Below are positions 1 to 62,669 of a stretch of 64,000 bases of DNA, one piece after another. The translations under genes and the position numbers were made by a program. The stretch comes from Chrysomallon squamiferum (lineage: Eukaryota > Animalia > Mollusca), in NCBI GenBank assembly GCA_012295275.1, contig CM022670.1, positions 41,106,001 to 41,170,000 of the forward strand. The letters are read 5' to 3'. Position 1 is the stretch's first letter, and every line of letters starts with the position of its first letter. The notes under the pieces are model-generated. The model was not told where the DNA came from. It did no database searches and saw only the letters and a program-made list of their open reading frames with translations.

Positions 1-3000
1 TCTTCAAGCAGTTACTAATGTCAGACACCAAGCCTTAAAATGGAAAGGTTATGTGACCAAAAGAAGAATTCAAAAACAAACACGTACAGTTAATCGGATG
101 TTTATTTATTTCATTACTGGACTAAACTTTTATTTTTTAATTTAACTTTTTCTTTAACTTTGTGTGTGTGTGTGTCTTGTTGTTTTTATTATACTGTTGT
201 TGTCTTCGGAATGAGATTTGTCATTCTAGACTTGTATGTGATTAATTAATTTACATCAAAACAAAAATCCTGAAATGCCTACTCAGTATGTATAAATATA
301 AAAACAGCAGACTAATATGTTTAGTCCATCAGTTTGCCTTCATTCAACTTACTGATGTATATTCACACACACATAATGTAATCCTAGAAAGTCACTTGTA
401 TATATTAAAATGATTAGAGCTAAAATCTTGAATATTTATAAGTTGACTAACATCATACAAATGACACAAACTTCTGCTTTGTTAATAGCTGTATAAATTG
501 ATAATTAATATTATGAAAATCCCATTTTTTGTTCTGTTAATAGCTGTATAAGTTGAAAATTAACATTATTTTTCATTCTTGTTACTGAGATTTATTTTAT
601 ATTATTAAAAAAATCAAATGTGACATTAGTTAGCAGTATTTTGTAGTTCAGACATGATTTTAAACTGCTTTATTTGTGGCAATAGATATGAATGGCTTCA
701 TTTTTTAAATTATTTATTTTGTTTTATATATTATTATTTAATTTTCTAAATTATTAAAAAGTTAGTTTATTTCCTGATTAGGTATCTTTATTTAAGTTTT
801 GTTTATGTTTTAGGTTTTAAGGTTTCATTAAACATAAGTTGAGTAATTTCTGTTTTGGTAACATGTTTAAATTCTGCAATACTATGATTAACATCTGCAG
901 CTCATTTTCCATACTGTAGAATATCAGAGGTAATGTCAGAGGTTTAGTTAAATACTGTTAGCATTACGTAATTGTTTCCAAATGCATTAAGTCACACTTT
1001 TTACTTAAGTTACACTGTGGATTACTGTTGTTTACTAGCAACTAATTAACAACCAAAATCTGAATTTTTATCATTTTTTAAAATCTGCTGGCCACTGGTG
1101 TTGTAGTAAATAAATACAAGGTTATATCTTAAAATAGAAAAATAAATATAAATAAATAAAATAATAATAATAAATGAATAAATAATTATAACATAAGAAA
1201 AATGTTTATGAAATTATTTTGGTACAGTTCTTGTATGTAACTATTCTAAAGGTTACATTATTTAACGATGATGATGATATGATGATGATGATGATTGTGT
1301 TGTTTTAAAGCATGGCCTGATAACATAGAACTATTTCTTTGAATTGTCTTTTAATACTTAAAATAAACTAACATTTTTTTCACTAAAACTTATTTTTACT
1401 AAACTGACAGCTGATGAGTGTCCATCAGGTATGTATTGTAGTTACATAGAGTAACAAACTATGCATGTTATTTGATGTTGGTAGATTTTATTTAAAACTA
1501 ATCACATCATGCTTCAGCGACAAACAAGCTTTTCAGTATTGCTGTTACATATGCTGCATTGTCTATAAAGTAAAACAAAAAAAAAGTTTTTAAAGTTAAG
1601 GTTGTTAAAAGTTCATGTTTCTTATTTTTGCTTTTATATATATTTAAAAACTGTATTGTATGTCTGTCACAATTTTCATTCCTTTGCAAATTTCAATTTA
1701 TTTATTTATTCTATTTTTATTTATTTATTTATTTTATATCATACAATATTTCATCTTATGATTTTATATGTAGATTAATAATAATAATAATAATAACAAC
1801 AAAAATAATTTCAATTTCATAATCAGCTGTGTTTTAATTGACCTTTTATTATAGTTTTTGTATTTTTTCATGTCTTTATCAATTTATTCACTGACTCACA
1901 TTTTAGTCCAGATAAATTAGAACAAAACTAAAAACTGAAGAGTTTTTCATTTTTCATTTCTATTTTTATCAGAGATCTGAAGATGATCTAATTTCACTTA
2001 AAAATAACTTTGTTTTATTCATCTCTCTATCTTCATTTTCAGTAAACATTTTCACTTCTTCCTATAAACAAATTGTTTTTAACAGACACTATCTCATTGT
2101 CAAGAATAATATGTAAATGTGTTATTCCTAAATGAATAATATAGAAATATTATTTATTTTTCACAAATACCATGTGGGAGGTTTTGTTTTTGTTTTGTTA
2201 AACAAGCCACTAACATTAGTTTGTTAAATATGTTTTCTTTTCTAAAACTGTGAAGTGGCAAAATGGTTCTAACGTTTATTAAATATTTAAGATAGATAAA
2301 TTCAGGTTTCCTTATTGTTCTCTGAATTATCTATAGAATAATTAATTATATACCATTATCTGCATTATATATTATTAAATTTGCTTCTTTCATTATACAA
2401 TAAATATTTAAATATATAATTCAATATACAAACACAGAAAGCAAATTATATGTAGTAAGAAATCATAATTATCACTGTTGTATTTACCAAATTGGCAAGA
2501 ATAAAATATGAATATCAAAGTAATTTGTTTACTTTTGTTTCCACAAATGATAGCTATACTAGAACATGAATATGAACATCACAAAGACCAAGAGATAACA
2601 GGCCAGTTAGGACTGGGTGACATCCACCCAGACTTTGTGAGTACCCAGGCAGAGGAGAAAGCTGCATCATCAAAGAGTTGTGGAAATCAAGAATTAATGA
2701 AATATTTTGCCAGTCTTGGCCAATCTACTGATGAAAATGAGACAATAAATCTGAATTTTGTTGAAACTCTGCTGCATGGTGGAGCAAACATAAACTGTAC
2801 TGACAAACATGGACAGACAATTTTACATGAAGTAAGTGTAGCAGAAATTTCTTAGTCTTATTATTTTAGTCTTGTCCAAGTGGTTTTTTAGTACCAGAGA
2901 CTTTCAATTCAGTTTTCATGGGTCACTAGATCTATAAATCTTGATGATCCATATTTTCTGTTTATCATAAGCTAATGATCTGTAAGTGGCCTTCCTTAGA

Positions 3001-4810
3001 ATTAAAATGTGTTTATTTACTATTTTCTTGTTAAGATTTTTATACTGTATTTGATTTTAATTATATTTAGGTTGCTCGAACATGGCATGTAGATGTTGCC
3101 AGATTTCTTATTGAACATAGAGCCAACGTCAATGCTGCTGACTTGTATGGCAGAACTCCACTCCATGTTGCAGCAGCAGTAGATTATGCAGACATGGTCA
3201 ACCTACTCATTGACAACAAAGGTGTGTGTGTGTATGGTTTTTCTTATTCATTAAGTATCCTCTTTCTCAAGGGTAGACTGGTCTGTTTATAACAGATTGA
3301 AATATGTGCAGTGTTGTATGTATTTCCCAGTCAAAATTGACAAATAATTCTGCTTATCGTTAAATATTATGTAAACAGTAACATGTAGTTCCATTGGACA
3401 TGGCAGCATGAAATATATAAATCACTCTAGTGATTTGAAGACATAAACCATGAATTTTTATTTTCCCGTAATGTCAGATATGGTGATTTTAAGTAATATG
3501 TTTTATATATAGTAGTAAATTATATGTGTTTATAAACAATTAGCTTTGTTGTCTGTTTCAGCTGACAAGGAAGCTCGGACAATTAACGGAGAAGATCAGA
3601 CTCCTGTCTTTTATGCAGCTAAATCTGATTCCTGCAAGTCTTTGAAAGCTCTCATTAAAAGAGGATGTGAGTTCAAAACAATCCGAGATGGCAAAGGTAG
3701 AACACCCATTCATGCTGCTGCTCAGCTAGGTAAATTTCAGATTTAGAAATTCTAATATTTGTTGTTAATATTTATCTGTATGAAGCTGATATGTTCATAA
3801 TTAATCATTTTACACATTGCTTTTAGTAGATTTTTTCCCTTTTTAGTACAAGGTAAAAATTAGTTATTATTATTATTATTATTAAATAATAATATTTGTT
3901 TTATATTTTTATTTCTAGGTATGTGACTAATGTATATATATATATATATAAAAACAATACATTTTTTTTCAGATCGCAGTGAGACAGCCAAGTTACTCCT
4001 AAAGGAACAGGCTCCTGTAGATGTCAGTGATAACTCTGGTGTAAAAGCCATCACCTGGATGATCACAAAAATGCCACCTGTGGTATGTACTGTTAAACCT
4101 TCACAAAACTAAAAGATTTCCCTCTCAAAGGAAAATAATAATATGGCATAATTATGTATTGACATAGTTAACAGTTCATAGAGATACTGTTTTACATACA
4201 AAATTTTGTGTGTGCTGTTTTTCAGGCCAATGAAGCTCTCAATCAGTTCCGAACAGCAAATCGTGCAAACAGAGAACAGCGTTTTTATCTCAGTCTTCTA
4301 GTTCAGGATAAAAGTGAGTTGTAATAACAAATTTCTCCTTTAAGATTTTTTAAATTTCAGTTGGTAATTATGTTTGACTGTTATTAAATACTATTTGTGG
4401 AGACAGACATACACATGTACTTTCTCACATATCAGATCTTAAGCTGTAAGAGAGAGTTGCAGTAAAGCAGGAATATACCAAGCAGAATTCATCATACCAA
4501 GATAACTTTGCTGCAACATATTCCTTTTCACTTTACAAAAACAGTTTTCTGACATTTAATTTATCATTAATGGAATAATGTTTTGTTTGAAAATTATATA
4601 TTATGTCAAATTTTTAATCTCTAGTAAAGTTTAATTAAATCTCACTGTCCAAACTTTTACAAAAACTGTTTTCTGACATTCAATTTATCCTTACTGGAAT
4701 ATTATTTTATTGTTAAGTTTTCAGTAATTTGTTCTGATACTTGTATTAAATTTCACTATTCAAACTTGAATTATTTCAGTTAAGCCCTATTTGATTTTGT
4801 ATCACACATG

Positions 4811-4849
<39 letters not shown>

Positions 4850-7800
4850 TTAAGTGTTTTGTATAGTTTTCAGTGTTTTCAAAGTGATTATGTTTTAATG
4901 TTTTACAGAAAAAGATCCAGATGGTGGAAAACCAACCCCAGTAAGTATTTCTCTTCTGACTTCTATTAATATGTGCATTTGTAATTAATAAATTTAAAAT
5001 AATTTTTATTATGAGATTATTTTAAAGCCTTACAATGTTTTACAAACAAATGTAATTACTCTCATGTTTCTGATTGATTTTGTGTATATACAAGCCAAAA
5101 AAAAAAATATATATTACATCTGCTTTAGGTTGGGTTTATTAATTAATTAAGTTGATTATAGGATGACAAATGACACTCTCTAGCATCAAATTAAAAATTT
5201 TAGCCGGGCACTTATCAAATTAAAATAATAATATAAAATGTGTAGTATAAGTAAAAAGTTATTTATCCATAGAGATGGGCTTTTTTCTGGTTGTAGAAGT
5301 CATTTTCTTTAAAAAAAAAAAAAAAAAGATTTAGTCAGAAAACTATTTATTTTCATTTGTTTTAAATGGGCTTTTCAGTTTTGTTCATTTGAATTATTTT
5401 CAAGATATGTATGTATTACACTCTACTTATTTCAGACAGTCTTTGAAAATACATGCCTAATTATGTGAGAAAAAACATTATCTGAATATTATTAAAGTTA
5501 AAAGCCAAAATAAAATAAAATAAAATAAAATAAACAAAAAAAAATAAATAAAATAAAGATAAAAAAAAAATTATAATGATACAAATAAATAAATAAATAG
5601 ATCATAATAAATAAAAATAAAAATAATAATAATACTTAAAGAAATAAAAGGATCAAATAAATATAAATATCTGTTTACATTTGTACCAGCTTCATATAAT
5701 TAATTAGCTACGTTAAAATATTGATTTACTGTGAAAGTTAAAAACATATAGCTAGTCAAATAAGAACTAAATAATTCATGAGAACATTTTAAAAGCTATT
5801 TCCTTCTATACCAGCTCCATGTTATTGTGCAGCAGAAACAATTCCAACTTCTTATGAATGAAACTATTCAGCGCTTGATTGAAATCATGTGGCAAAAATT
5901 TGGCCTGTATGTTTAGTGTGAATGCAGTTCTGTATTTGCAGTGGTGGTTGTATTCTTCTCAGTGTTACTGTCTGCTCAGATGGCTAAATGTGTGTTGCTT
6001 CAAATTTCAGGTTTTCTATCTCATACTAAACACACACATAGGCTAAACAAAATGATTTGTTAAAATTAAATTTTAGATATTAAATATCTATAAACTAACC
6101 TTTCTGTCAATAAGGTAATATTTCTCAATTTTTAAAATATAATAAAATATAATATTAGTTAATATTAATGGTTTTCTTTCTACATTTTTGATAGTGATTT
6201 TATTGTAGTACAATATTTTATTAGAACAGAAGCTAATCATTTATTAGACTTTGGAGTTCTTTTGTTGATGATATTTTTTCATTGTTGGAATAAGCATCTT
6301 AATTGTTTTCATAATCAATTAATTTCACTCAGTGTGTAAAAATATGAGATAAAAATTAAGTTATAAACAGCTACTAATACAAAAATATCACAAACTATAT
6401 AATAAGTGGATAGATCATTTCTGAAGTGGGCATTTGGTTTGATATAATGCATACATATCAACCATTTAACTACATAAAAATCATATTAGTGACAAATTAA
6501 ACATTCAGTTTTGTTTGTTTATTTAATTTTTCCTTTGTTTTCTTTATATATAATATGTCTGTTTTTTATTTTTGGACATTGAATTTTTGTCATGTGATTT
6601 GTCGAATGTGTTGTTCAAAATAAACCAAAAAATATTAAAATGTTCATAAAATGTTTATTAAGCAGTGGTCTTAAAATAAATAACAAATGTAGGTATATGA
6701 AATATCTATTTGTTCACTCCTTCACATTTAAACCAACATTATATTAATTTCTAATGATATATTTAATATTTACTAAAATAATAAAATAATATAATTCAGT
6801 ATTTATTAATCTGCTCAATGTATAGTAGAAAGCATTTGGCAGGGTCAGTTGTAAAATGGTTATTTATTTACCATACTTATTTAATTACTTTTATTTTTTA
6901 TTTTCCATTTAAACACACTTTCTTTCCGAATACCAAGATTTTTCATTGCAAATATTTAATTTTTTAAATTGCAAAAAAAACATTTTTTTTAAAATTTTGT
7001 GATTTTATGGTTGTTGTGTTTTTTTCTGTTATTTATTTATGTTTTATTTTTAACTGTTGTAAGCTTCATAATATGAACCTTCTTTGAATTATGTCACTTT
7101 GTTTCAGTAAATCAGGCACCATTTAAAATTATTTCTTAATGCTTAATAAGTGCTAATTGTTTCATGATAACCTAAGAGTGACTAATTGTTTTATTATGCT
7201 TGTCACAGTTGTAAATATATATATATCTGTCTTGGACAGGTTACTACCTGAGGTGGGATCTATGTGTGCAGTATATTATAAATACTGTATCACGTTTTTG
7301 TACATTAGAATACAAGACATGTTTAAAAACTGTATTTGCACTAGCATTGAACATTTACTATAGCAGTAAAGATTAATGTAGATGAATAGAAATATTGAAA
7401 TCTGGCACATCAATCATATATGGGTAAATACAATGAAAACAGCAATTATATAAATAACTAGTTACCAAGTGTGTTCAGGGGATAGTGACTGTTCCATGGG
7501 AATCATTCCACAGTTCTCTCCTAAGACAAACATCTCTGTGCTTTTATATATTTATTTGGTAACGTGTTATGAAACTTTCTGCTAGACGTCTGTCAGCAGA
7601 TCATTCTGTGATACAAGACCAGTAACACTGACCACTCCTGAGGTGATCAGTAATCCTGCAATTCCCAGGCTTTTAGTTGACTGAGCAGACCAAAACAATG
7701 TTAAATGCTGAACTGACAGATTTTTGAATTTTTTTTTAAATTTCGGTACTTACTAATAAGATATTGTTTTTTAATGTGTAACTCTTTTTCATTTTGCATT

Positions 7801-10800
7801 GTTTAAATGCTGTAATTATTCATATTTTATTAACAGCTTAAAGGCGGATGTGTGTGTGTGATAATGCATACGACCAGAGAAAATGTAATTTTTATGCAAC
7901 AAGCTAGAAATTAATTTTATGTTAAATAAAGTTAAATGAATTAAAACAAATTCAGTAATAATGTTATATTATTTCAACATTATGTTATAAGATAAGAATA
8001 TTTTTAAATAGTTTTATTATGTTAATATTTTAGGTTGTATATATTAGTATAAATGTTTTATGTTAGTAACTTATATCTTTTATTACTATGTTGTTATGTT
8101 AGTCTAAGGTATGTGTTTATTACAGTGTTATTATGCTGATTTGTAATGATATAAATGTTTTATGGTGGTGTGTTATTAGATATCTTTTTGTTACAGACGA
8201 GGTGCATGGATTAACTTGATGCTGAACTTGTTGTATATTCTCATGTGGACTTTTATTGGTGTTCTTGTGGAATATGATGACAGGCACCAATACACCTTAC
8301 CAAATGACATCTGGAGAATTGTATTATGGGTTAGTAACTCATTAAATGACATTTCATAGGTGCAAAAAAATATTTAATCAGGATGTATCTGGCCAAGACA
8401 GACCTTAAAGTGACTATTGTTGAACATTTGTGTTTGTTTATTTCAAACACACCTCCATCATTTCAAAGTTGCCCAGTTCATTTGCAAATTCTGGGTGTTT
8501 CTTATGATCTCTCACCCAAACAACACCTCAGGTTAAGCAAGGAAGCAGAGTTCAAAGTTGACTGACCATAATATCTCAACTGTCTTTTTACTCCTGTAAA
8601 TATGAAGTTATAAATAATTGATCTCGGAAATTATCAGCGATGAAGGGGTAATGTTCATTTTGAAAAAACTGAACAGTTTTTAAAATTGAATTTAAAATAA
8701 TAATAAAAAATGTATTGATAAAAGTTTGTATTTTACACACACCCAACATACAATCGGCTTCCAATATTATCACCAGGAAACAAATGACATGGTGAAAGAC
8801 TGGCTAGTAAATGGATGCATGTTTGCAGTAAACTAGTATAACAGTGCAGTATTTTAAGGTCTCTTAAGCTATCTGCGATTCAGTTTCAGTCCCATTCAGT
8901 ATTTCTTTAGTATTTCTTTAGTTATCATTGGAAGCATTTAGAAATTGATGTTACTTTTACTGCATCTTGAATCAACTATCTGAATTTTCTTTTAATATTC
9001 TGATGTTTTAAAATATTGTTATTTTAATTATTATAATTATTCTGTTTTTATATTTGAGATGATTTGATTGCTTCCTTGTTCATTGTTTGGTTGTATATTT
9101 GTTTCAGTTGGTAGCTGTTGCATTTACTGTATGGCAGATAGTGGAAGAGCTGTTGGAATACACTCGGTCAAAAAGAGCACATCGGGTTTGTAATCTAAGT
9201 ACTCTGATCCAAAACCATAGATTGATATAACCATTGTATTACATTTCCTAATTTTAACAAACTACAACAACTCTGTCATTAATGTTGTGGTTATGTTCAT
9301 GAAAGTACTTCTTTACCTGAAATGTTAAGTGAAACTGATTTTACACAGTTATATAAATGGAGGATTATGTCTTTGAAACATATCTGGCATATATCCTCAC
9401 ATGGTTAAGGGAAAAAAAATAATTCTCTACTGTAAACAGAAATAATGTATATTCACATACAAATAAGATAAATAAACAAAAATAAAATTAATATTTGTTT
9501 GATGGCTGATGCAATAATGGATGTAGTTGTGGTGGTTGGGAGAGTTGGAAGCTGCTAATAGATAGATGAGATTTCAATCCTTCTCCTGATCACTGAAATG
9601 CACTCAAAATCGATGTTTGAAAAGAGGAAAACGACACCAAACAACAAATATGGTGCTTAGAGCATCGGTTATAGAATGGAGCATTATGATAGTCAGGCTT
9701 GGAATGCCTTTATACCAAATATTTTATGTCATCATATATTTACATCTTTTATCTTTCTTAATTGTTGTTTATTTATCAGTTTGTTCCATCCTCATTTTTT
9801 GATTACCTCATCAGACCATCCATCCATCCACGAGTCTGTTCATGTTTTGTTGTTGTTTTCAGAATGCAATGAAGTGGCAAACTCAGGAAATAAATGAAGA
9901 TTTAAAATTCTGTCACCCTCAGTGGCCAGAAGAAAGACATTTCCTAGAATCAGAGTTGAAAGAACTAACCAAGCTAAGCCCTAACTACTTCAGTGACTAC
10001 TGGTAAAACATAAACAAAAATTTTATTTCATATTTCAGATGTTATTGGTGTATTAGAAACACTGTAACTTTTGTTTCTGTTTGAAAATAAGTGGAAATCA
10101 CAATTTATCTGTGCAAAATTTCTGACATTAAGATTTAGGCACATACAACAGAATTGTATGATTAAAAACATGTATTTTCTAAGAATATGTTTTGATGTTG
10201 TTTACTTCTTGTTTAATGCTTTGATTTGTTTTTTCTTGTTTACTTATACTGTAGATTTTTATTTAAAAACATAATGGTTTTGTATTTTTTAGGAATATTT
10301 TTGACTGGGTGTGTTACTTTTTGTTGTTGACATCAATCATCACTCACCTGGTTGACATTGGTTACCACACAAACCAGCTTGCACGTGCACATATCCGTGT
10401 GATGAGTGTTACAATAATTCTACTCTGGCTGAGGCTAATGAAAAATGCTAGAGCATTTTCAGTTTTTGGTATTTAAAAAAAAATTATATTTTTGTTTTTT
10501 CCTTACCCAGATTTAATTTATAAGAAACTTATGGAGCATGAACTTTATATTTAATTCATGATCTGTTGATATTTGAAAGCATGGAGAATAGTTCAGTATA
10601 ATTTGAACAAGTGAAAAATAAATTAGTAAGTAAATAATTACTATGAAAGAAATCAAAATAAAATCTGAAATAAATTAGTCAATACTTTTTTAAAAATAAA
10701 AGAAAGAAAGGAATTGTGAAATGTTTATCAGACTTTTTATTATGAATGTGCTGTTTTTGTTGTTTGTGGTGATGTTGTGTTTACTTGATATACTTTCTAA

Positions 10801-11107
10801 CAGGACCTTTCATTGTGATGCTGGGACACATGATGGGAGACATGGTGAGGTTTGCATTTCTCTACTGTGAGTTCTACATTCCATACGGTGAGTAACTTAT
10901 TCTTTACATAGTTACTACATGTGTTTATTTCTGCATTCAGAAAGGTCAAAAATGTGAAAAATTCAATCATGTTTTCTTTCATGACAGTGAAAGCAACACG
11001 TTCTCTGATTTGTGTCCAAATTTTCCCTAACAATTTGTGCCTCATTTCTTCAGATGCATTCACATACTGTTAATATTTAACAATTTTATCAGAATTTGTT
11101 TTTGTTT

Positions 11108-11138
<31 letters not shown>

Positions 11139-20585: not shown

Positions 20586-20854
20586 TTTTGTGCAGTTTGT
20601 GGGTGTAATTCATTGTGAAACTTCGGAGATACGGGGTTGTTTATGCATGGCGAAAAATTGCCTTATGAAAAACAGTACTTTTAGCTATATGGTTATGTTA
20701 ATTGTTTAATCTTATCGCAAACATGCGAATAGGAAGCATTGCTTTATTTAGTAGATGGAAAAAAAAATTAAAGGCCAATAAAATTTAAAAAGTGCTACAT
20801 TTTAAACTGCATTTGTTTATTTGTAAGCAGGTGCTCGTTGTTATTGGTAACCAA

Positions 20855-20948
20855 TGTGTCCAAAATGGCGTCTGCTTTCACTGTGTTTCACGTCTGCCTG
20901 TAAACTAAAGTAATGCTGATGAAGATAGACCTGTAAAATATAAAACCA
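20855..20948 (+). promoter_or_regulatory. Putative 5' non-coding exon / TSS-proximal region of copy B with YY1-like motif
   Basis: caaaatggcg at 20861-20870 in a locally CpG-richer zone, with candidate donor ccag|gttagc at 20948. Coding exon 1 is preceded by an acceptor (ttcactgtag, 21144), which implies an upstream UTR exon. Confidence 0.4.
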
Positions 20949-39538: not shown

Positions 39539-39589
<51 letters not shown>

Positions 39590-46561: not shown

Positions 46562-46655
46562 TGTGTCCAACATGGCGTCTGCTTCAACTGTGTCTGACGT
46601 CTGCCTGTAAACTAAAGTAATGCTGATGAACAAACAGCTGTAAAATATAAAACCA
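46562..46655 (+). promoter_or_regulatory. Putative 5' non-coding exon / TSS-proximal region of copy D
   Basis: caacatggcg at 46568-46577, candidate donor ccag|gttgtc, and an ETS-like cggaagt at 46801. Confidence 0.38.
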
Positions 46656-47033
46656 GGTTGTCTGTTTTTACATATCGCTTCAATTACATTATTCACTATA
46701 AACCTTCAGTTTGTAAAATATTCTAAAATGGTTTTAATTTCGATCCTAAATGTAAAGAGCTATTGGTAACAATACAAAACAAATGCTTAGGCAAGGAAAA
46801 CGGAAGTTAAATTTTCAAATAATTTTAATAATCAACGAAAGAATTATACTTATTTTTTTTTCTTTCTTAAAATGATAAAATAAAAATATAATTAAGTTTT
46901 AATGAATACTCCAGTGCATGCGGTAATTAAACTACGGGGAATCCAATTTTATGTGTGTAGGCTATGTATGTGTGAGGTATCAATACTGAAGCACACTTTT
47001 AAATTTTTTATTTTATTTTCACTGTAGATGAAA

Positions 47034-51334: not shown

Positions 51335-51367
<33 letters not shown>

Positions 51368-51374
51368 GATTATA

Positions 51375-51430
<56 letters not shown>

Positions 51431-51492
51431 TGTTTTTATTATCATTAAATAATAATATTTGTTTTATATTTTTATTTCTAGGTATGTGACTA

Positions 51493-51527
<35 letters not shown>

Positions 51528-52384
51528 CAATACATTTTTTTTCAGATCGCAGTGAGACAGCCAGGTTACTCCTAAAGGAACAGGCTCCTGTAGATGTCAG
51601 TGACAAATCTGGTGTAAAAGCCATCACCTGGATGATCAAAAAAATGCCACCTGTGGTATGTACTGTTAAACCTTCACAAAACTAAAAGATTTCCCTCTCA
51701 ATGGAAAATAATAATATGACATAATTATGTATTGACATAGTTAAGAGTTGATGTAGATACTGTTTTACATGCAAAATTTTGTGTATGCTGTTTTTCAGGC
51801 CAATGAAGCTCTCAATCAGTTCCGAACAACGAATCGGCCAAACAGAGAACAGTGTTTTTATCTCAATCTTCTAGTTCAAGATATAGGTGAGATGTAATAA
51901 CAAATTTCTCTCTTAAGATTTTGTAATATTTCAGTTGGTAATTATGTTTGACTGTTATTAAATACTATTTGTGGAGACAGACATACACATGTACTTTCTC
52001 ACATATCAGATCTTAAGCTGTAAGAGAGAGTTGCAGTAAAGCAGGAATATACCAAGTAGAATTCATCATACCAAGATAACTTTGCTGCAACATATTCCTT
52101 TTCACTTTACAAAAACAGTTTTCTGACATTTAATTTATCATTAATGGAGTAATATTTTGTTTGAAAATGATATATTATGTCAAATTTTTAATCTCTAGTA
52201 AAGTTTAATTAAATCTCAGGGTCCAAACTTTTACAAAAACTGTTTTCTGACATTTAATTTATCCTTACTGGAATATTATTTTATTGTTAAGTTTTCAGTA
52301 ATTTGTTCTGATACTTGTATTTAAATTTCACTATTCAAACTTGAATTATTTCAGTTAAGCCCTATTTGGTTTTGTATCACACAT

Positions 52385-52432
<48 letters not shown>

Positions 52433-53218
52433 TTAAGTGTTTTGTATAGTTTTCAGTGTTTTCAAAGTGATTATGTTTTAATGTTTTACAGAAAAAGATC
52501 CAGATGGTGGAAAACCAACCCCAGTAAGTATTTCTCTTCTGACTTCTATTAATATGTGTATTTGTAATTAATAAATTTAAAAGAATTTTTATTATGAGAT
52601 TATCTTAAAGCCTTACAATGTTTTACAAATAAATGTAATTACTCTCATTTTTCTGATTGATTTTGTGTATATATCGAAGCATATATTACATCTACTTTAG
52701 GTTAGGTTTATTAATTAATTCAGTTGATTATAGGATTAGATAAATGACTATCTAGTTTAAAATTAAATATTTTAGCCGGGCACTTACCAAATTAAAATAA
52801 TAATGTAAAATGTGAAGTATAAGTAAGGAGTTGTTTATCCATAGAGATGGGTTTATTTCTGGTTGTAGAAGTCATTTTCTTTAAAAAAAAAGAAAAAAGA
52901 TTTGGACGGAAAACTATTTATTTTCATTTGTTTTAAATGGGCTTTTCAGTTTTGTTCATTTGAATTATTTTCAAGATATTTATGTATTATACTCTACTTA
53001 TTTTGGACAGTCTTTGAAAATATATACCTAATTAAATGAGAAAAAAAATTATCTGAATATTATGAAAGTTAAAAGTACCTACATGCCAAAAAAATAAAAA
53101 ATAAAAAATAAAAATAAATAAATATATAAATAAATAAATAAATACATAAATAAATAAGATAAAAATAAAAACAATAATAATAATATAAATAAATAAATAA
53201 ATAGATCAAATAAAAAAA

Positions 53219-53271
<53 letters not shown>

Positions 53272-53276
53272 TAATA

Positions 53277-53311
<35 letters not shown>

Positions 53312-56300
53312 AAAGATAAAATAAATATAAATATTTGTTTTCATTTGTATCAGCTTCATATAATTAATTAGCTAAGTTAAAATACTGATTTACTGTGAAA
53401 GTTAAAAACATATAACTAGTCAGATAAGAACTAAATAATTCATGAGAAAATTTAAAAGCTACTTCCTTTTATACCAGCTCCATGTTATTGTGCAGCAGAA
53501 ACAATTCCAACTTCTTATGAATGAAACTATTCAGCGCTTGATTGAAATCATGTGGCAAAAATTTGGCCTGTATGTTTAGTGTGAATGCAGTTCTGTATTT
53601 GCAGTGGTGGTTGTATTCTTCTCAGTGTTACTGTCTGCTCAGATGGCTAAATGTGCGTTGCTTCAAATTTCAGGTTTTCTATCTCATACTAAACACACAC
53701 AAAAAAATTAAATTTTAGATATTAGATATCTACAAACTAACCTTTCTGTCACTAAGGTAATATTTCTCAATTTTTAAAACATATTAACATAATCATATTG
53801 GTTAATTCTAATGGCTTTCTTTCTTCATTTTTGATAATGATTTTATTGCAGTACAAACAATATTTTCTTAGAACAGAAGCTAACATTTATTAGACTTTGG
53901 AGTTCTTTTGTTGTTGATATTTTTTCATTGTTAATATGTTGGAATAAGAATCATAGTTGTTTTCATAATAATTAATTTCATTTAGTGTGTAAAAATATAT
54001 AAAAATTAAGTTATAAACAGCTATTAATACAAAAATATCACAAACCAACCATTTAACAACATTTGAAAAATTATATTCAACCATTTAACAACATAAAATT
54101 ATATTATTGACAAATTAAACGTTCAGCTGTGCTTCTGTATTTATTTTTTTCTTTGTTTTCTTTATATATAACATGTCTGTTTTTATTTTTGGACATTGAA
54201 TTTTTGTCATGTGATTGTCCAATGTGTTCAAAATAAACCCCCAAAAATATTAAAATGTTCATAAAATGTTTATTAAGCAGTGGTCTTAAAATAAATAACA
54301 AATGTAGGTATATGTAATACCTATTTGTTCACACCTTCACATTTAAACCAACATTATATTAATTTCTAATGATATATTTAATATTTACTAAAATAATAAA
54401 ATTTAAAAATGTTCTGGTAAATGATCTGCCCTGACAGTTAACATTGCCTCCTTAATTCAGTATTTATTAATCTGCTCAATGTATAGTGGAAAGCATTTGG
54501 CAGGGTCAGTTGTAAAATGGTTATTTATTTACCATACTTAGTTAATTATTTCTATTTTTTATTTTCCATTTAAAACACACTTTCTTTCCAAATACCAAGT
54601 ATTTTCTTTGTACTTATTAATTTCTTAAATTGCAATAAAAACATTTTTTTTTTTAAATTTTGTGGGTTTTTTTTTTTTTATTTATTTAAGTTTTCTTTTT
54701 AACTGTTCTAAGTTTCATAATATGAACCTTCTTTGAATTTTGTCACTTTGTTTCAGTAAATGGGGCAGCTTTTTAAATTATTTCTTAATGCTTATTAAGT
54801 GCTAATTGTTTCATAATAACATGAGGATGACTAATTGTTTTATTATGTTTGTCACAGTTGTAAATATATATATATCTGTCTTGGATAGGTTACTACCTGA
54901 GGTGGGATCTATGTATGCAGTATATTATAAATACTGTATCACATTTTTGTACACTAGAACACAAGACTTGTTTAAAAACTGTATTTGCACTAACATTCAT
55001 AGAACATTCACTATAGCAGTAAAGACTAATATAGATGAATAGAAATATTGTAATCTGGCACATCAATCACATATGGGTTAATACAGTGAAAACAGCAATT
55101 ATATAAATAACTAGTTACCAAGTGTGTTCAGTGGAGTCATTCCACAGTGATCCACAAAGAAAAAACATCTCTGGTCTTTTATGTATTTATTTGGTAACAC
55201 GTTATGAAACTTGCTGCTAGACGTCTGTCACCAGATCATTCTGTGAAACAAGACCGGTAACACTGACCACTCCTGAGGTGATAAGTAATCCAGCAATTCC
55301 CAGGCTTTTAGTTGACTGAGCAGACCAAAACAATGTTAAATGCTGAACTGACAGATTTTTGAATTTTTTAAAACTTTTGGTATTTACTAATAAGATATTG
55401 TTTCTTTAATGTATAACTCTTTTTTATTTTGAATTGTTTAAATGCAATAATTATTTTATTAACAGCTTATGGGGGGGGGTTGTGTAATAATGCATACAAA
55501 CAGAGAAAATGAAATTTTTTTATGCAATAAGCAAGAAATTAATTTTATGTTAGATAAAGTTAAATGAATTAAAACAAATTCAATAATAATGTTATATTAT
55601 TTCAACATTATGATATAAGATAAGAATATTTTTTTAATAGCTTTATTATGTTAATATTTTAGGTTATATTAGTATAAATGTTTTATGTTAGTAACTTATA
55701 TCTTTTATCACTATGTTGTTAGGTTAGTCTTATTACAGTGTTATTATGCTTTATTTGTAATTACATAAATGTTTTATGGTGTTGTGTTATTAGATATGTT
55801 TTTGTTACAGACGAGGTGCATTGATTAACTTGATTCTAAACTTGTTGTATATTCTCATGTGGACTTTTATTGGTGTTCTTGTGGAATATGATGACAGGCA
55901 CCAATACACCTTACCAAAAGACATCTGGAGAATTGTGTTATGGGTTAGTAACTCATTAAATCAATGACATTTCATGGATGCAAACAATTTTTAATCAGGG
56001 TGTATCTGACCAAAACAGACCTTAAGTTGACTGATCATAAAATCTCTCTACTCCCGTAAATATGAAGTTATAAATAATTGATCTCAGAAATTATCAGTGA
56101 TGAATGTGTAATGTTCATTTTGAAAACACTGAACTGTTTCCAAAATTGAATTTAAAGTAATAATAAAATATGTTTTGATCAAAGTTTGTATTTTACACAT
56201 AGCCAGTAAACAATTAACATCAGGAAACAAATGACATAGTGGGAGACTGGCTAGTAAACAGATGCATGTTTGAAATAAACAAGCATAACAGTGCAAAAAC

Positions 56301-58734
56301 AGTTATTTTTTATCCTGTTCTTTCCCATTCAATATTTTTATGCATCACTATTTCTTTAACAAGCATTCATATGAGTTATCTCATCATTTGAAACACTTAC
56401 TGATATTACTCTTATTTCATCTTGAATCATCTTTTAATATTATGATGTTTTAAAATAATGTTGTTTTAATTATTATAATTATTCAGTTTTTATGTTTGTG
56501 ATTGTTTGATTGTTTCATTGTTCATTGTTTGGTTGTATATTTGTTTCAGTTGGTAGCTGTTGCATTTACTGTATGGCAGATAGTGGAAGAGCTGTTGGAA
56601 TACACTCGGTCAAAAAGAGCACATCAGGTTTGTAATCTAAGTACTCTGATCCATAGCCATAGATTATACTTTGATATAACCATTGTATTACATTTTTAAT
56701 TTCAACAAACTACAACAACTCCACCATTAATGTTGTGGTTAGGTTCTTGAAAGTACTTCTTTAACTGAAATGTTAAGTGTAACTGATTTTACACAGTTAT
56801 ATAAATTGAGGATTATGTTTCTTTGAAACATATCTGGCAAATATATTCTCACACATTTTCTGAAAATGATAAATAAAATCCCAGAAATAATGTATACTTT
56901 ACAAACAAATAAAATAAATAAACAAATATATATTTAAAATTAATATTTATTTGATGGCTGATGCAACAATGGATGTAGCTGTGGTTGGGAGGGTGGGAAG
57001 CTGCTGATGGTAGAAGAGATTTGGGTCCTTTTCATGATCACTGAAAAGTTTAGAAGTTTGGTCCTCATCATTGCTCGATGTGAACTTGTACATTACCTCA
57101 AATCTTTGGACTTGAAATGGATGTTTGAAAACAACAAAAAAGCCACCAAACATTAACAAAAAAATATGGTGCTTAAAGCATCGGTTACAAAATGGACTGT
57201 TACAACAGTCAGGCTTGGAGTTCCTTTATTCTATATATATCATTGTATATTTATGTCTTTTAATTTTTATGTCAAAGTTGTTATAAGAAAACTAATATTA
57301 ATTGGGATATGTTCTACTGGGTTACTGTTCCTTTAAAATGTCATAAATACATTTATCCATCCATTATCTATATCTTCAACTAATTGTTGTTTGTCCATTC
57401 ATCAGTCTGTTCCGTCCTCATCTTCTGATTATCTCATCAGACCATCCATTCATCCACGAGTCTGCTCATGTTTAGTTTTTGTTTTCAGAATGCAGTGAAA
57501 TTGCGAACTCAGGAAATAAATGAAGATTTAAAATTCTGTCACCCTCGATGGTCAAAAGAAAAACAATTCCTAAAATCAGAGTTGAAAGAACTAACCAAGC
57601 TAAGCCCTAACTACTTCAGTGACTACTGGTAAAACATAAACAAAAATTTTATTTCATATTTCTGTTATAATTGGTGTATTAGAAACACTGTAACTTTTGT
57701 TTCTGTTTGAAGATGAGTGGAAATCACAATTTATCTGTGCAAAATTTCTGACATTAAGAAGAAGGTACATACAACGGAGTTGTTTGATTAAAAACATGTA
57801 TTTTCTAAGAATATGTTTTGATGTTCTTTACTTCTTGTTTAATGTTTTGTTTTGTTTCTTCTTGTTGACTCATTTTTCGATTTTTATTTTAAAGCAATAA
57901 TGGTTTTGTGTTTTTTAGGAATATTTTCGACTGGGTATGTTATGTTTTGTTGTTGATATCAATCATCACTCACCTGGTTGACATTGGTTACCACACAAAC
58001 CTAGTAGCACGTGCACACATCCGTGTGATGAGTGTTACAATAATTCTACTCTGGCTGAGGCTAATGAAAAATGCTAGAGCATTTTCAGTTTCTGGTAGTT
58101 TAAAAATATATATATTTTTGTTTATCCTTACCCAGATTTAATTTATAAGAAATTTATGGTGCATGAACTTTATATTTAGTTCATAATCTGTTGATATTTG
58201 AAAGCATGGAGAATAGTTCAGTATAATTTGAACAAGTGAAAAATAAATAAGTAAGTAAATAATTACTATGAAAGAAATCAAAATAAAATCTGAAATAAAT
58301 TAGTCAATACTTTTTTAAAAATAAAAGAAAGAAAGAAATTGTGAAATTTTTATCAGACTTTTTTGTTATGAATGTTCTGTATGCCGTTGTTTGTGGTGAT
58401 GTTGTGTTTACTTGATATACTTTCTAACAGGACCTTTCATTGTGATGCTGGGACACATGATGGGAGACATGGTGAGGTTTGCATTTCTCTACTGTGAGTT
58501 CTACATTCCATACGGTGAGTAACTTATTCTTTACATAGTTATTACATGTGTTTATTTCTGCATTCAGAAAGGTCAAAAATGTGAAAAATTCAATCATGTT
58601 TTCTTTCATGACAGTGAAAGCAACACGTTCTCCGATTTTTGTCCAAATTTTCCATAAAGATGCGTGCCTCATTTCTTCAGATGCATGCACATACTGTTAA
58701 TATTTAACAATTTTATTAGAATTTGTTTTTGTTC

Positions 58735-58770
<36 letters not shown>

Positions 58771-60173
58771 TATATATGTTTTTGTTTTTATATATATATA
58801 TATATGTATATAAAGAAAAATGAAAACAAAAAAAGAAAAAAGATTTTTCCCTGAGTTGAAGCAAATTCATGATTATTTTCCAGTTTGTGCGTTTTGGATG
58901 TTGTTTGGTGGGGAGAAGAAACCAGACTCAGGGGAAGGTCCACTGATCAATGTGACCTGGTTTAATGACATTGGTCAGGTCATGTTTAGTCTGTTCAGGC
59001 TGACCCTAGTTGATGACTATGATTATGAGGTTAGTTAAAACTACTATGTATTTATAATAATATTAGAAAAGATGAAGTACATCCATACTTAAAGATATTT
59101 TACATATTAACTTTCATATTTTTACTCTGTAAGTATTTTTAATTGTTTTTAATTTTAGTATTTATTTATATGTAAAGAAAACAGTATTTTTCTTAAACAT
59201 ATATTTTCATTTTTTAACTTTTTGAGCATTTGAAACAAGTTGATTCTGTCATGGCCGATATTCTTATTGGAACCTGGTTGGCACTGTCAGCCATACTGTG
59301 CCTTAATCTCTTCATAGCACTGTTGTCAGACACCTTTCAGCGGTAGGTTTTTGTTTGGCCTTGATCTGGTAACAGCTGAGTATGTTTGAGTGTGCTGTTT
59401 AATGTCATATACTGGTGGTGTTATTTTTATGTGTGTAAAATATTAATTATTTTGTTAAATTTATACAGTTACAGATACAACAGTTCAAATATAGGACATA
59501 ATGTTACAGTTACACTTTGTTATGAAGAAATCATTTCAAATATTTATCATTTTATTTTTAAGTCTGCTTGAGGATTTATAAACAGTACTTGGAAGTAATT
59601 CAAACTGATTTTGTTTGATGTTTTCTGGGTCAGAATAAATTTTAATTTAATGATTATATTTAATGTTGATGATTATATTTTGAATTTTTATAAAGGAAAC
59701 CACCAGTGCAATAGTGCAATCTTTTTGTCAACGAAATATGTTTTATATATAAGTATATCACAACTTGAATATACAAAATTAGAATGTTGATTGGATCTAA
59801 TATCTAAACATAGTATGATTGATTCTGCAGTCTAGTGATCCTCAGTCAATTGATATATATATAGAGCTACAGCTCAGATAAATATAGTTTCCCGTATTTT
59901 ATTCTAATTAAGATATTTGATATTTTCCTGCACAGAGTTTATGACAATGCTCAGGCAAATGCTCTCATGCAGAAAGCTATCACAATTTTAAACATCTGGG
60001 AAGGAATGTCAGAGGAACGACGTCATGGGTTTCTTCTCTATGTGCACAATCAATGCAGCCCCAAACGAGATCCATACGATGATGATGTGACAACTAGTGG
60101 AGAGGACGATCTTAAAAAAGACAACATCCAAATAAAGGTACAGGTTTTGAAATATTTGTTATAATAATAATAA

Positions 60174-60207
<34 letters not shown>

Positions 60208-62669
60208 TGTAGTTGTAGTAGTAGTAGTAGTTGTAGTTGTAGTTGTAGTTGTAGTTGTTGTTGTTGTTGTAATGTTATTTTATGATGATGATATTGCTGC
60301 TAAAGACTTAGATAATGATCATGTTTATACTACTACAACTAATAATATTTATTATTACAATGATGATGTTCTAATATGCTAATAATAATATTCATCCTTT
60401 TAAAGGAAGGACTTGATAAACTGATACAAGGCTGGAATGGAATGTTCAGACATGACAAAATATCTGACATGCAGGTAAATATAAAAATATTTTAAAAAAA
60501 CCCAAATCTTCATAATTGCTTTATAACAACCTTCATTCATTAATTCATTTTGTTCAAATGTGTCCAAAAACCCATTCTATTTTAGGAATTCTCTGGTGGT
60601 TCTGGTGGTGGAGGAGGAGGTGGTGGTGGTGGTGGTGGAGGAGGTGGGAGTGGAGGAGGAGGTGGTATGGGTCAGGATGTAAAACGTAATCGTGGGGTGG
60701 TGGTCACGGTAGACCGGTTTGAGAAGGAGATCAGTGTTTTACACACTGGAATAAAAGACTTGCAGGACAGACAGGAACACATCATGAACAGTCTGAAAAC
60801 TATCAAACATCTACTCCGGCAACAGCATGGTAGATAACAGAGATTGACTTATTTTTAATACATTATACATAGATAACAAACTGACTTATTATACATTATA
60901 AATAGATAAATGAGACTTACTTATTTTACATTATAAATAAATAATAGAGAGTGACTTATTTTATATTAGAAACAGATAAATGAGACTGACTTATTTTACA
61001 TTATAAATAGATAACAGAGATTGGCTTATTTTACATTTTAAATAGATAACAGAAACTGATGTATTTTGCATTATAAGTAGATAATCGAGATTGACTTATT
61101 TTATATTATAAATAGATATCAGAGATTGGCTTATTTTTGCATTATAAATGGATAACTGAGATTGACTTTTACAGTATAAATACATAACTGAGATTGACCT
61201 ATTTTACATTATAAATAGATAACAGAGATTGACTTATTTTATATTATGAATAGGTAAAAAGAAAACAAAACCACAAACTCATGAAGATTACAGAGATTCA
61301 CAGGAACCAGCAACATGTAAGAATGCAGTCATCCACTGCAATCTACTTTTAATTTGTAGACAATATTAGTTACTTTTAATTTTGATAACAACAGGTAAGA
61401 ATAGAGCATCCTTTTTTAATTTGTAGACAGTATTAGTTACTGTCATACATAATTTGATAACAACCAATCAACAATACAATAATATTAGTAACCTGTTTTC
61501 TGTTAATGATTTGTAAACAGTATTTTCTTTTGTTTATTTTTTGTATACAGTTCTTATCCATTACAACTGAATTTTCAGGACTGGTGCTTTCTCTGTTAGT
61601 CCATGAAATGAAGGGTCATCAGTATATAAATATATTTTCTTTGATTTAGTTGTATTTGATTTGTTGTTTTATTTTGTGGGGTTTTTTTGTGGTTTTTTGC
61701 AGACTTCCCACCCATTGATATATCTATGATGCAGCTTCCTTCCCAGACCACACCTGAGGTATTATTTTTTTTTATACTACATCATCTTTAGAGAGAGACA
61801 AATTGTTTTTCACATTTTTACTTAAATATGTAACAAATTAAGTTGAATTTCAAATTAATTCTTTTTTCTTCTGTACTTTGTATACATTTAGACACAGAAT
61901 TTGTTATATTTTTATTTAAGTGTTATATATCCAGATGAAATTTCTCTAATTAAGTATCTCTACTGAAAACACTTTAACAGAGAGAATGTATATTTAAGTA
62001 TGACATTTTGTAAGTCATTTTATCTATAAAATGCAATTCCTCAGACCTGTGTTATTATTTTAAAACCGTTAATTTTCACAAGAATTATTGAACATTGTTA
62101 CTTCTATTTAATTTTTTTAATTCAAAGTCATGTGTTCCTGTTCAGTTAATGAATTAATGATATTTTGTCTAAGATATTTCTGAGACACGAGAGAAATAAA
62201 AACATTTACTATGATGTTTTTATAATGAAATTGTTCTTCTTACTGCTAAAACTGCTTTTACTGATACTATTATCAGCACATATTTTTTTATCTTATAATA
62301 TATTGTGGATTATTTGTTAGTATATTTGACAAATAACTCAGTACTCAGGACATACTGTAGAGCATTATTAAATGTAAAGTCATAATGTAAATATAATTAC
62401 ATTTAAGATTAAAATGTGTTTTTATAATAACATTTCTTTACTTGTAAGTTATTCATTATGGTGTAATTAAAGAAAAGATTTTTGTTAAGTAAATTTCAAA
62501 TCAGACCAGAAGCAAAAAGTATTACCAGTAATTAACTGAAATAAAAAATAATTAATACTAAATAAATAAATAATAAAAGTAATAATGTTTACTGCAGTAA
62601 TATAAATACGTGTCACCTTTTTTTTTTTATCTACAGCCACTAGATCATATAGACACTACTGAGTGTTAA
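47034..62669 (+). CDS. TRPV-related ankyrin-repeat cation channel, copy D, complete (about 885 aa)
   Basis: 22 coding exons: 47034-47158, 47623-47696, 49921-50198, 50445-50595, 50945-51112, 51546-51655, 51799-51886, 52492-52523, 53478-53569, 55811-55943, 56550-56627, 57489-57628, 57919-58094, 58431-58514, 58884-59029, 59227-59342, 59936-60137, 60406-60474, 60586-60829, 61254-61316, 61703-61758, 62637-62669. They total 2658 nt with matching phases and no internal stop, ending PLDHIDTTEC*. An in-frame upstream ATG lies at 47028. The last three exons are less certain, with an alternative stop at 60835-60837 if the minisatellite intron is retained. Confidence 0.88.
51331..51429. repeat. (TTA)n microsatellite
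   Basis: Read directly from the sequence. Confidence 0.95.
53090..53330. repeat. (TAA)n/(TAAA)n low-complexity tract
   Basis: Read directly from the sequence. Confidence 0.9.
60830..61253 (+). repeat. 33-35 bp minisatellite, copy D
   Basis: Same unit, about 12 copies, directly abutting coding sequence on both sides. Confidence 0.93.

What the first reader, a model, noticed from the sequence alone, without database searches (positions are those of the whole stretch)
1..62669. Young tandem expansion of an atypical TRPV-related (TRPVL-like) channel: a candidate diversifying sensory receptor cluster
Seen: four same-strand copies with alignable introns and spacers, so the duplications are recent. 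At least two look coding (A, D) and the visible part of B is open. Known: S4-S5 GPFIVML..GDMVRF, S6 LNLFIALLSDTF and QKAITIL parallel TRPV5/6 (GPFTIMI..GDLMRF) and TRPV1 (QRAITIL), and invertebrates usually keep few TRPV genes (Nanchung/Inactive types). Inference: the long S2-S3 linker (FCHPxWPEE), the Trp-less TRP helix and the distinct pore suggest the poorly characterised TRPVL group. It appears to be undergoing birth-and-death expansion, like a chemo- or thermo-sensory receptor family. TRP channels are tetramers, so the paralogs could co-assemble combinatorially.
Basis: partly seen in the sequence, partly recalled or inferred. Interest (0 to 1): 0.82.

Follow-up and report, generated by a model that had tools for sequence, protein, structure and literature searches.

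The report
Partly decaying tandem TRPVL channel array
Four side-by-side copies of a little-studied animal ion-channel gene (TRPVL) lie here, likely in a deep-sea-vent-type snail; two are near-intact, one is cut by an assembly gap and one is dead, a pattern that likely reflects ordinary gene birth and decay rather than a new receptor repertoire.

Summary
The array is real and the gene is TRPVL (renamed TRPW in catshark). Copy D (22 coding exons, 885 aa, open) is 51% identical to the published Capitella TRPVL and has its fingerprint residues. The nearest relative is the single TRPVL gene found in Gigantopelta aegis; A, B and D form their own clade beside it. A is near-intact (stop 20 codons early). 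B is open but split by a 200-N gap. C is a promoterless pseudogene lacking exons 5-9. Introns differ 7-9% between copies, except B/C (0.3%), so only B/C could be a haplotype or assembly echo. RNA contigs hold spliced transcripts, A-type and D-type letters, and a fifth, more ancestral copy not in the window. The pore is conserved (A-D membrane dN/dS 0.30; filter TLVD resembles TRPV6 TIID). The cytoplasmic ends are eroding, and an alternative exon used by relatives is broken in A, C and D. No comparison shows dN/dS significantly above 1. TRPVL multiplication (Hydra 5, catshark 4) and molluscan TRP clusters are already published. Verdict: observation confirmed, family call confirmed, adaptive sensory diversification unshown.

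The parts
1..16316 (+). Copy A, TRPVL gene, near-intact. Exon 1 and the start of exon 2 lie before the window. Exons: 2-83, 2554-2831, 3071-3221, 3562-3729, 3973-4082, 4226-4313, 4909-4940, 5815-5906, 8197-8329, 9108-9185, 9863-10002, 10293-10468, 10804-10887, 11223-11368, 11579-11694, 12259-12460, 12703-12759, 12902-13172, 13798-13864, 14371-14462, 15392-15447, 16284-16316
   Evidence: open for 864 visible codons
15421..15423 (+). Premature TAG in the penultimate exon of A; removes the last 20 residues of a tail predicted to be disordered
   Evidence: low pLDDT of this part in the ortholog model
6793..6843 (+). Broken remnant of the alternative exon 9b in A (5' part deleted, two stops)
20759..21773 (+). 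5' part of copy B: upstream region, 5' UTR exon ending 20949 (by match to D), exon 1 21145-21276 (ATG 21152), start of exon 2 from 21743
   Evidence: 4.6% substitutions against D
21774..21973 (.). Assembly gap of 200 N, true size unknown; hides B exons 2 (part) to 12
21974..26567 (+). 3' part of copy B, open: exons 22197-22372, 22704-22787, 23141-23286, 23585-23700 (shifted acceptor after an insertion), 24306-24507, 24684-24768 (fused, shortened exon lacking the Gly run and part of the coiled coil), 25189-25251, 25626-25672, 26535-26567
30557..41604 (+). Copy C, pseudogene: begins in intron 2 (no promoter, exon 1 or exon 2), exons 5-8 and most of 9 deleted at about 33510, exon 16 donor lost, frameshifts in exons 17, 18 and 20
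33765..33815 (+). Broken remnant of alternative exon 9b in C
46466..46656 (+). Upstream region and 5' UTR exon of D (donor after 46656; start of the exon not determined)
   Evidence: spliced joint to exon 1 in RNA run X8
47028..62669 (+). Copy D, TRPVL gene, open, 885 aa. Exons: 47028(ATG 47034)-47158, 47623-47696, 49921-50198, 50445-50595, 50945-51112, 51546-51655, 51799-51886, 52492-52523, 53478-53569, 55811-55943, 56550-56627, 57489-57628, 57919-58094, 58431-58514, 58884-59029, 59227-59342, 59936-60137, 60406-60474, 60586-60829, 61254-61316, 61703-61758, 62637-62669
   Evidence: all introns GT-AG, one stop at the end. RNA contigs laid on D join UTR-1, 3-4, 4-5, 5-6, 6-7 and 7-8, some carrying other copies' letters. 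The last three exons are inferred from homology; read-through of exon 19 would stop at 60837
54451..54504 (+). Broken remnant of alternative exon 9b in D (5' part lost, in-frame stop)
58884..59029 (+). Exon 15 of D: turret, pore helix and filter motif TLVDDY, identical filter in all four copies
60831..61257 (+). 35-bp minisatellite in the intron after exon 19; also at 13217-13603, 24770-25192 and 39855-40171

Best explanation
This is a lineage-specific tandem array of TRPVL (TRPW) channel genes, likely made by repeated segmental duplication and now in birth-and-death turnover, whose surviving copies are predicted to form tetrameric calcium-permeable channels with essentially the same pore. Shown: four copies, their lesions, family membership, a clade of their own beside the Gigantopelta gene, purifying selection on the A-D membrane part, and loss of alternative exon 9b in A, C and D. 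Inferred: C arose dead from B by a duplication running from intron 2 to just before the next promoter; the copies are fixed for the exon-9a isoform while a more ancestral copy seen only in RNA lies outside the window or in the gap; retention of A and D mainly adds dosage or a splice-form-specific version of the channel, with relaxed constraint on the cytoplasmic ends. Predicted: calcium preference, because the filter TLVD puts an aspartate where TRPV6 has D542 of TIID.
For: Family: D is 51% identical over 789 aa to Capitella ELU06894.1 and 47% over 707 aa to Dimorphilus CAD5123450.1, both listed as TRPVL in PMC9242649 supplement. Tree: A, B, D form one clade (support 100), sister to Gigantopelta (100). 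Paralogs, not alleles: intron substitutions A-D 491/7168, A-B 108/1398, B-D 96/1427; B-3', C and D lie on one gap-free stretch; D-type letters occur together with A-type and B-type letters in both DNA runs laid, from two samples and two studies. Selection: A-D dN/dS 0.30 (CI 0.16-0.55) in exons 10-16, 1.28 (0.60-3.28) in exons 3-9; B-D 0.74 (0.42-1.44); C-D 0.94 (0.51-1.87). Pore helix to S6 differs at 1-3 of 53 residues and S5 at 0-1 of 37 among A, B, D. Erosion: in-frame deletions in D exon 2 and in the tails of B and D, premature stop in A, dead C. Exons 9a/9b are alternative isoforms in Gigantopelta and Haliotis; 9b is broken in A, C, D. Expression: two RNA runs hold 0.18 and 0.16 of the sampled words of D 55700-61800 against 0.194 expected from D's own exons and 0.073 from A plus B. 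Filter: TLVD followed by D/E-Y in 91 of 97 family members; TRPV6 filter is 539-TIID-542 (PMC10510737); best structural match of the ortholog model is TRPV6, Z 22.3, rmsd 7.5, 528 aligned, tied with ankyrin-repeat proteins.
Against: A dN/dS near 1 fits relaxed constraint but also a mix of positive and purifying selection; the pairwise test has few sites and gene conversion blurs it. B differs from A and D at 10-12 of 57 residues in S3-S4, more than drift-only clipping would need. The copies evolve faster than the Gigantopelta gene with abalone as outgroup (D 51 vs 27, p=0.009; B 24 vs 7, p=0.003) though not significantly with limpet (p=0.08-0.14). The RNA runs also hold intronic contigs, so D-specific letters inside one exon may be DNA or pre-mRNA; D's own exon 1-2-3 joints were not among those listed. 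Ion selectivity is read from a motif only; Foldseek ranks TRPA1 marginally ahead of TRPV1/5/6 (E 2.7e-15 against 6.7e-14 to 1.3e-13).
Confidence: 0.6

Rival explanations
1. One reading: the copies are being kept by selection as a diversifying chemo- or thermosensory family, with changes in S3-S4, the S2-S3 loop, the TRP helix and the ankyrins retuning gating, and mixed tetramers widening the range.
For: Catshark trpw1 is expressed in the sensory layer of the olfactory epithelium (10.1101/2024.05.23.595469 section 33). The two vent peltospirids studied expanded TRPM genes in parallel (10.1101/2024.05.23.594666). A-D differences concentrate in the S2-S3 loop (10/55) and TRP-helix region (14/75), B's in S3-S4 (10-12/57). 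At least three sequence types appear in RNA.
Against: No dN/dS interval lies above 1. One of four copies is dead and a second clipped. B's private changes include residues seen in 0-4 of 97 relatives (R557S, D692N, A703E, N704H, I762M), although its overall share of departures at conserved columns (7/100) equals that of the Gigantopelta gene (15/221). In the abalone passages read, TRPVL is not among the genes named as tissue-enriched or heat-responsive. Tissue of the RNA runs is unknown.
Confidence: 0.2
2. The channel works like TRPV5/6, a constitutive epithelial calcium-entry channel, and the extra copies were selected for dosage in gill or mantle ion uptake.
For: Filter TLVD matches TRPV6 TIID; pore conserved across copies; TRPV6 is the top whole-chain structural match; the Xenopus member is deposited as 'calcium transporter 2' (BAC24124.1, a name only); a coral 'TRPV5/6-like' channel is inwardly rectifying and calcium-permeable (PMC12503276), though whether it is TRPVL could not be told from the text read.
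Against: TRPVL lacks the TRP-helix tryptophan (A at that position); the one expression study read points to olfactory neurons and brain; dosage selection should homogenise copies, yet their cytoplasmic ends diverge and erode.
Confidence: 0.12
3. Part of the array is an assembly artefact: the 3' half of B and copy C are one locus assembled twice (haplotypes or noisy consensus) beside the gap, so the true count is lower and some of C's small lesions are base-call errors.
For: B starts at a gap edge; B and C differ by 7 substitutions in 2800 bases but by 18 internal indels, many in homopolymer or microsatellite runs; their spacers differ by about 2.5%, a plausible allelic distance.
Against: No gap lies between B, C and D; the spacer before C resembles the spacer after C, not the one before B, as a tandem duplication predicts; C's large deletions are not base-call errors; A, B-5' and D types co-occur in two DNA runs; RNA points to more copies, not fewer. 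As an account of the whole array (all copies being haplotypes) it is very unlikely.
Confidence: 0.12

Closest known systems
TRPVL family (Peng et al. 2015, recalled and as cited in the papers read; references Capitella ELU06894.1, Dimorphilus CAD5123450.1), renamed Trpw in catshark (10.1101/2024.05.23.595469)
   Same: 51% identity to the Capitella reference, fingerprint residues, four clear ankyrin repeats, six membrane helices, long S2-S3 insert, TLVD[DE]Y filter, Ala in place of the TRP-helix Trp
   Different: Most gastropods found carry one gene (abalone two); here at least four linked copies and a fifth in RNA, with shortened N- and C-termini and loss of exon 9b. Not to be confused with the WD40-bearing choanoflagellate 'TRPW' (10.64898/2026.06.15.732245)
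Gigantopelta aegis TRPVL gene (XP_041358930.1 and isoform XP_041358932.1)
   Same: Nearest relative, 63% identity over the full alignment, same Gly-rich tail; exon 9a isoform matches window exon 9 at 87%
   Different: One gene with two alternative exon-9 isoforms in the protein collection; the window copies keep 9a only
Published TRPVL multiplications and molluscan TRP 'hotspots' (Hydra TRPVL1-5; catshark trpw1, trpw2.1-2.3; TRPM clusters in vent and intertidal molluscs)
   Same: Lineage-specific multiplication of TRP genes, in molluscs as local clusters
   Different: The clusters highlighted in vent snails are TRPM, not TRPVL, in the passages read; whether the Hydra and shark copies are tandem was not stated
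TRPV5/TRPV6
   Same: S4-S5 linker motif, T-x-x-D filter, overall fold (Z 22.3, rmsd 7.5, 528 aligned)
   Different: Only about 20% identity; membrane-region E-values no better than 4e-11; TRPVL-type residues at four diagnostic positions; fewer ankyrin repeats

Membership tests
TRPVL (TRPW of catshark) | Orthology to the published reference sequences | tested here: met
   D vs ELU06894.1 51% over 789 aa, 786 bits; vs CAD5123450.1 47% over 707 aa; accessions tied to ids and to the TRPVL label. In the tree the copies nest in a mollusc clade (99) of the same family
TRPVL (TRPW of catshark) | Fingerprint W - N G aromatic F W N F I A A (PMC9242649 Table 1) | tested here: met
   D reads W, A, N, G, Y, F, W, N, F, I, A, A: 11 of 11 specified positions. 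The aromatic at 591 was placed from a recalled TRPV1 anchor and agrees with the one-residue gap; without that gap the column is V
TRPVL (TRPW of catshark) | Four ankyrin repeats followed by six membrane helices | tested here: met
   Pfam Ank on exons 4 and 5 (exon 3 weak, E 0.023), Ion_trans below cut-off on exon 16; four clear repeat motifs plus a degenerate fifth in the translation; helices in the ortholog model, mean pLDDT 78
TRPVL (TRPW of catshark) | Monophyly against TRPV and TRPA in a tree that includes those families | not tested
   No full TRPV or TRPA sequence was returned by the tools; the tree holds family members and unnamed distant rows only
TRPV (Nanchung/Inactive, TRPV1-6) | Full 12-residue fingerprint with F434, Y441, aromatic 666, L678 and TRP-helix W697 | tested here: not met
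   D has A, N, W, F and A at these positions
TRPA1 | Long ankyrin array and NLLIG/R697 fingerprint | tested here: not met
   Four to five repeats, NLFIA and A697; Foldseek similarity to TRPA1 is only marginally ahead of TRPV
TRPV5/6-like calcium-selective channel (works like) | T-x-x-D selectivity filter giving calcium selectivity | tested here: inconclusive
   Motif present (TLVD vs TIID); matched by motif and position after the pore helix, not by residue-level superposition; selectivity needs electrophysiology
Adaptively diversifying sensory receptor family | Positive selection among paralogs | tested here: inconclusive
   dN/dS 0.30 to 1.28 by region, no interval above 1; few sites
Adaptively diversifying sensory receptor family | Paralog-specific expression in sensory cells and distinct stimuli | not testable with these tools
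   Only assembled contigs of two RNA runs of unknown tissue

The most novel reading that the evidence does not exclude
In a vent-snail lineage the TRPVL gene spawned five or more copies that dropped the ancestral exon 9b, kept a TRPV6-like calcium pore and rebuilt their gating parts (S2-S3 loop, S3-S4, TRP helix, tails), giving a set of co-assembling calcium channels tuned to different temperatures or vent chemicals; it would be a natural allelic series for finding the stimulus of a TRP family with no known activator.
Probability: 0.15. Interest if true: 0.72.

Novelty: new member of a known kind. Interest (0 to 1): 0.33.

Why it matters
TRPVL is an old TRP family, present from cnidarians to frogs and fish, for which I saw no functional study in the passages read and no solved structure. 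A young set of paralogs with one pore and different gating regions is useful material for finding its stimulus, and the TRPV6-like filter gives a direct, testable prediction of calcium selectivity for the whole family. The array itself is an ordinary kind of event: TRP clusters are common in molluscs and TRPVL has multiplied in Hydra and sharks.

Tried and rejected
No whole genome is held for this window, so copies outside it could not be counted. A first model of D with a short exon 2 (47650) and a stop at 60837 was replaced after homologs and RNA showed the acceptor at 47623 and three more exons. The apparent 1-base insertion in B exon 1 lies before the ATG and is not a frameshift. Exon 15 alone found no solved structure. 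A search with exon 3 for longer proteins, meant to recover the fifth copy, scored none of 39 candidates. Metagenome contigs gave 3 loci at 68-75% identity, not this organism, not followed. The mixture-model tree did not finish; FastTree was used on 42 chosen relatives plus three window rows. The search for 'xCaT2' listed only germ-plasm and imaging papers among 20 of 46. No paper held both 'Peltospiridae' and 'TRPV'. Four look-ups in earlier scan notes returned nothing. Reads were laid only on D 46400-52800, so splicing of exons 9-22, expression of B's 3' half, and the B/C junctions are untested; the fifth copy's private exon-3 letters were absent from the two DNA runs in the table shown, which may be a threshold effect and leaves its genomic presence unconfirmed. 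Spacers hold no ORF resembling a mobile-element gene at 70 aa or more by eye. No complex prediction was run.
Full report
Observation. The window is AT-rich animal DNA with one 200-N gap at 21774-21973. Self-BLAST and exon mapping show four + strand copies of one gene with alignable introns and spacers. Copy D has 22 coding exons from 47034 to 62669, all introns GT-AG, and one open frame of 885 aa. RNA contigs add a 5' UTR exon ending at 46656 and join exons UTR-1, 3-4, 4-5, 5-6, 6-7 and 7-8 when laid on D. Copy A is open for 864 visible codons; it keeps a longer exon 2 and an extra tail exon that match the ortholog, but has a stop 20 codons before the normal end. Copy B has exon 1 and 31 bases of exon 2 before the gap and an open 316-aa 3' part after it, with a shortened fused exon in the tail. 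Copy C starts in intron 2, lacks exons 5-8 and most of 9, and has a lost donor and three frameshifts.

What the gene is. One exon of D found 11 proteins among 244 candidates, led by Gigantopelta aegis at 76%. The Gigantopelta protein found 182 relatives (120 listed) in molluscs, annelids, brachiopods, amphioxus, echinoderms, tunicates, sharks, bony fish and frogs. Two of them, Capitella ELU06894.1 and Dimorphilus CAD5123450.1, are among the six TRPVL references of PMC9242649 (supplement rows). D is 51% identical to the first over 789 aa, whereas the membrane part of the ortholog matches solved TRPM2, Nanchung and TRPV5/6 only at E 5e-12 to 2e-10. D carries all 11 specified residues of the TRPVL fingerprint in Table 1 of that paper, including the four that separate it from TRPV (one position rests on a recalled anchor). 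The catshark paper extends the family to vertebrates, renames it Trpw, places it sister to TRPA, and reports trpw1 in the olfactory sensory layer (section read). In a FastTree tree of 45 rows A, B and D form a clade (100) sister to Gigantopelta (100) within molluscs. The organism is therefore likely a neomphaline gastropod related to Gigantopelta; this is inference from the nearest protein. No TRPV or TRPA sequence was available for the tree.

Copies or haplotypes. Intron substitution rates are 6.8% (A-D), 7.7% (A-B), 6.7% (B-D), 8-9% (C against A, D), and 0.3% (B-C, 4/1572). B-3', C and D share one gap-free stretch. In the two DNA runs laid (2 of 7 DNA-type holders listed; two samples, two studies; one could be the source), D letters occur beside A-type letters in exon 3 and intron 4 and beside B-type features (the G before exon 1, the 175-base skip). 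So A, B and D are paralogs. B and C are the doubtful pair: 7 substitutions but 18 internal indels over 2.8 kb, 2.5% in the spacers. The simplest reading is a young duplication from intron 2 of B to the spacer just before D's promoter, which made C promoterless from birth, with later conversion; an assembly echo at the gap edge is not excluded.

Expression. Two RNA runs hold 0.18 and 0.16 of the sampled words of D 55700-61800; D's exons account for 0.194 of that stretch, A plus B transcripts for 0.073. On 46400-52800, cover is exon-enriched from exon 3 on, though intronic contigs occur too. Run X9 has one exon-3 contig identical to D and one with 9 other letters, the number by which A differs there. 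Run X8 has a spliced exon 3-4-5 contig with 20 other letters and 24 gap letters, longer than D as the Gigantopelta protein is; 10 of its 13 listed letters match none of A, C, D, and its upstream end matches neither A's nor D's exon 2. This points to a fifth, more ancestral copy outside the window or in the gap.

Evolution of the copies. dN/dS (Nei-Gojobori, bootstrap intervals) is 0.30 (0.16-0.55) for A-D exons 10-16, 1.28 (0.60-3.28) for A-D exons 3-9, 0.60 for A-B, 0.74 for B-D and 0.94 for C-D. S5 and pore-to-S6 differ at 0-3 residues among A, B, D; differences sit in the S2-S3 loop, S3-S4 of B and the TRP-helix region. Relative-rate counts show faster change than in Gigantopelta with abalone as outgroup (p 0.003-0.012) but not with limpet (p 0.08-0.14). 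Gigantopelta and Haliotis make two isoforms with alternative exons 9a and 9b, 9b resembling the form in limpet, Aplysia and Capitella. A and D use 9a; 9b is broken in A, C and D. One X9 contig joins exon 8 straight to an A-type exon 10, out of frame, as expected if the 9b choice now fails.

How it likely works. By established TRP biology (recalled) the subunits form tetramers. The filter reads TLVD then D/E-Y in 91 of 97 relatives, and the calcium-selective TRPV6 filter is TIID with D542 (PMC10510737 passages); calcium preference is therefore predicted, not shown. An AlphaFold model of the Gigantopelta ortholog (pLDDT 78) matches TRPA1 and TRPV1/5/6 about equally by Foldseek and TRPV6 best as a whole chain by VIA-align, tied with ankyrin proteins. 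I commit to birth-and-death with a conserved pore, retention for dosage or a fixed splice form, and relaxed ends (0.6). Adaptive sensory diversification (0.2), selected epithelial calcium dosage (0.12) and a B/C artefact (0.12) remain.

Prior knowledge. Hydra has five TRPVL genes (supplement of PMC12980990), catshark four, abalone one in that study and two by my search. Mollusc TRP families number 31-167 genes and are enriched in local clusters, with TRPM expansions in Chrysomallon and Gigantopelta (10.1101/2024.05.23.594666 passages); many TRP expansions as clusters are reported in 10.1101/2021.11.14.466824 (first fifth and passages). Searches for TRPVL (61 papers, 20 listed), trpw1, TRPVL with duplication or single-cell expression, and Peltospiridae with TRPV (0) showed no report of this array in what I read; the bioRxiv supplements with cluster tables were not seen and may already list it. 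Other papers seen as passages only: 10.64898/2026.06.15.732245, 10.1101/2025.09.17.676462, 10.1101/2023.09.14.557824, PMC11526382, PMC12503276 (passages and one section). Peng et al. 2015 was not read.

Verdict. Real array, correct family, a new instance of a known kind of event. Interest 0.33; the points worth keeping are the TRPV6-like filter of an uncharacterised family, the loss of exon 9b in the duplicates, and the hidden ancestral copy.

Noticed in passing
window 49921-51112 (RNA run X8, record 22): A spliced transcript with 24 more bases in exon 3 and letters matching none of A, C, D: a fifth, more ancestral copy outside the window or in the gap
   Followed up: partly
window 52523 (RNA run X9, loose end): Exon 8 joined directly to an A-type exon 10, skipping exon 9 and shifting frame; may follow from the decay of alternative exon 9b
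   Followed up: partly
window 6793-6843, 33765-33815, 54451-54504: Remnants of a mutually exclusive exon 9b that is an intact isoform in Gigantopelta and Haliotis
   Followed up: yes
window 58431-58514 and copies: Exon 14 (S4-S5 linker and S5) is identical in all four copies at DNA level, exons 8 and 9 identical in A and D, while neighbouring exons differ by 5-11%: patchy gene conversion is likely
   Followed up: partly
window 60586-60680 and 12902-12990: Gly-run (GGT/GGA repeat) in the tail of A and D, shared with Gigantopelta and Littorina, deleted in B and C
   Followed up: no
window 42714-43674: 417-bp tandem unit, 2.3 copies at 98%, in the spacer after C; related repeat in the spacer after B at about 27650-28500
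   Followed up: no
window 62670-64000: The spacer after D continues to the window end aligned with the other spacers, so the array may go on downstream; A's exon 1 lies upstream
   Followed up: no
proteins P0003/P0050 clusters: Haliotis species carry two TRPVL genes on contigs of the same length, perhaps a separate linked duplication; second, long-branched copies also occur in Pecten, Lineus, Lingula and Saccoglossus
   Followed up: no
proteins P0072, P0150, P0117: Xenopus 'XCAT2 / calcium transporter 2' and zebrafish si:ch73-193i2.2 are TRPVL members, often labelled TRPA1-like or pyrexia-like in databases; they offer model-organism entry points
   Followed up: partly
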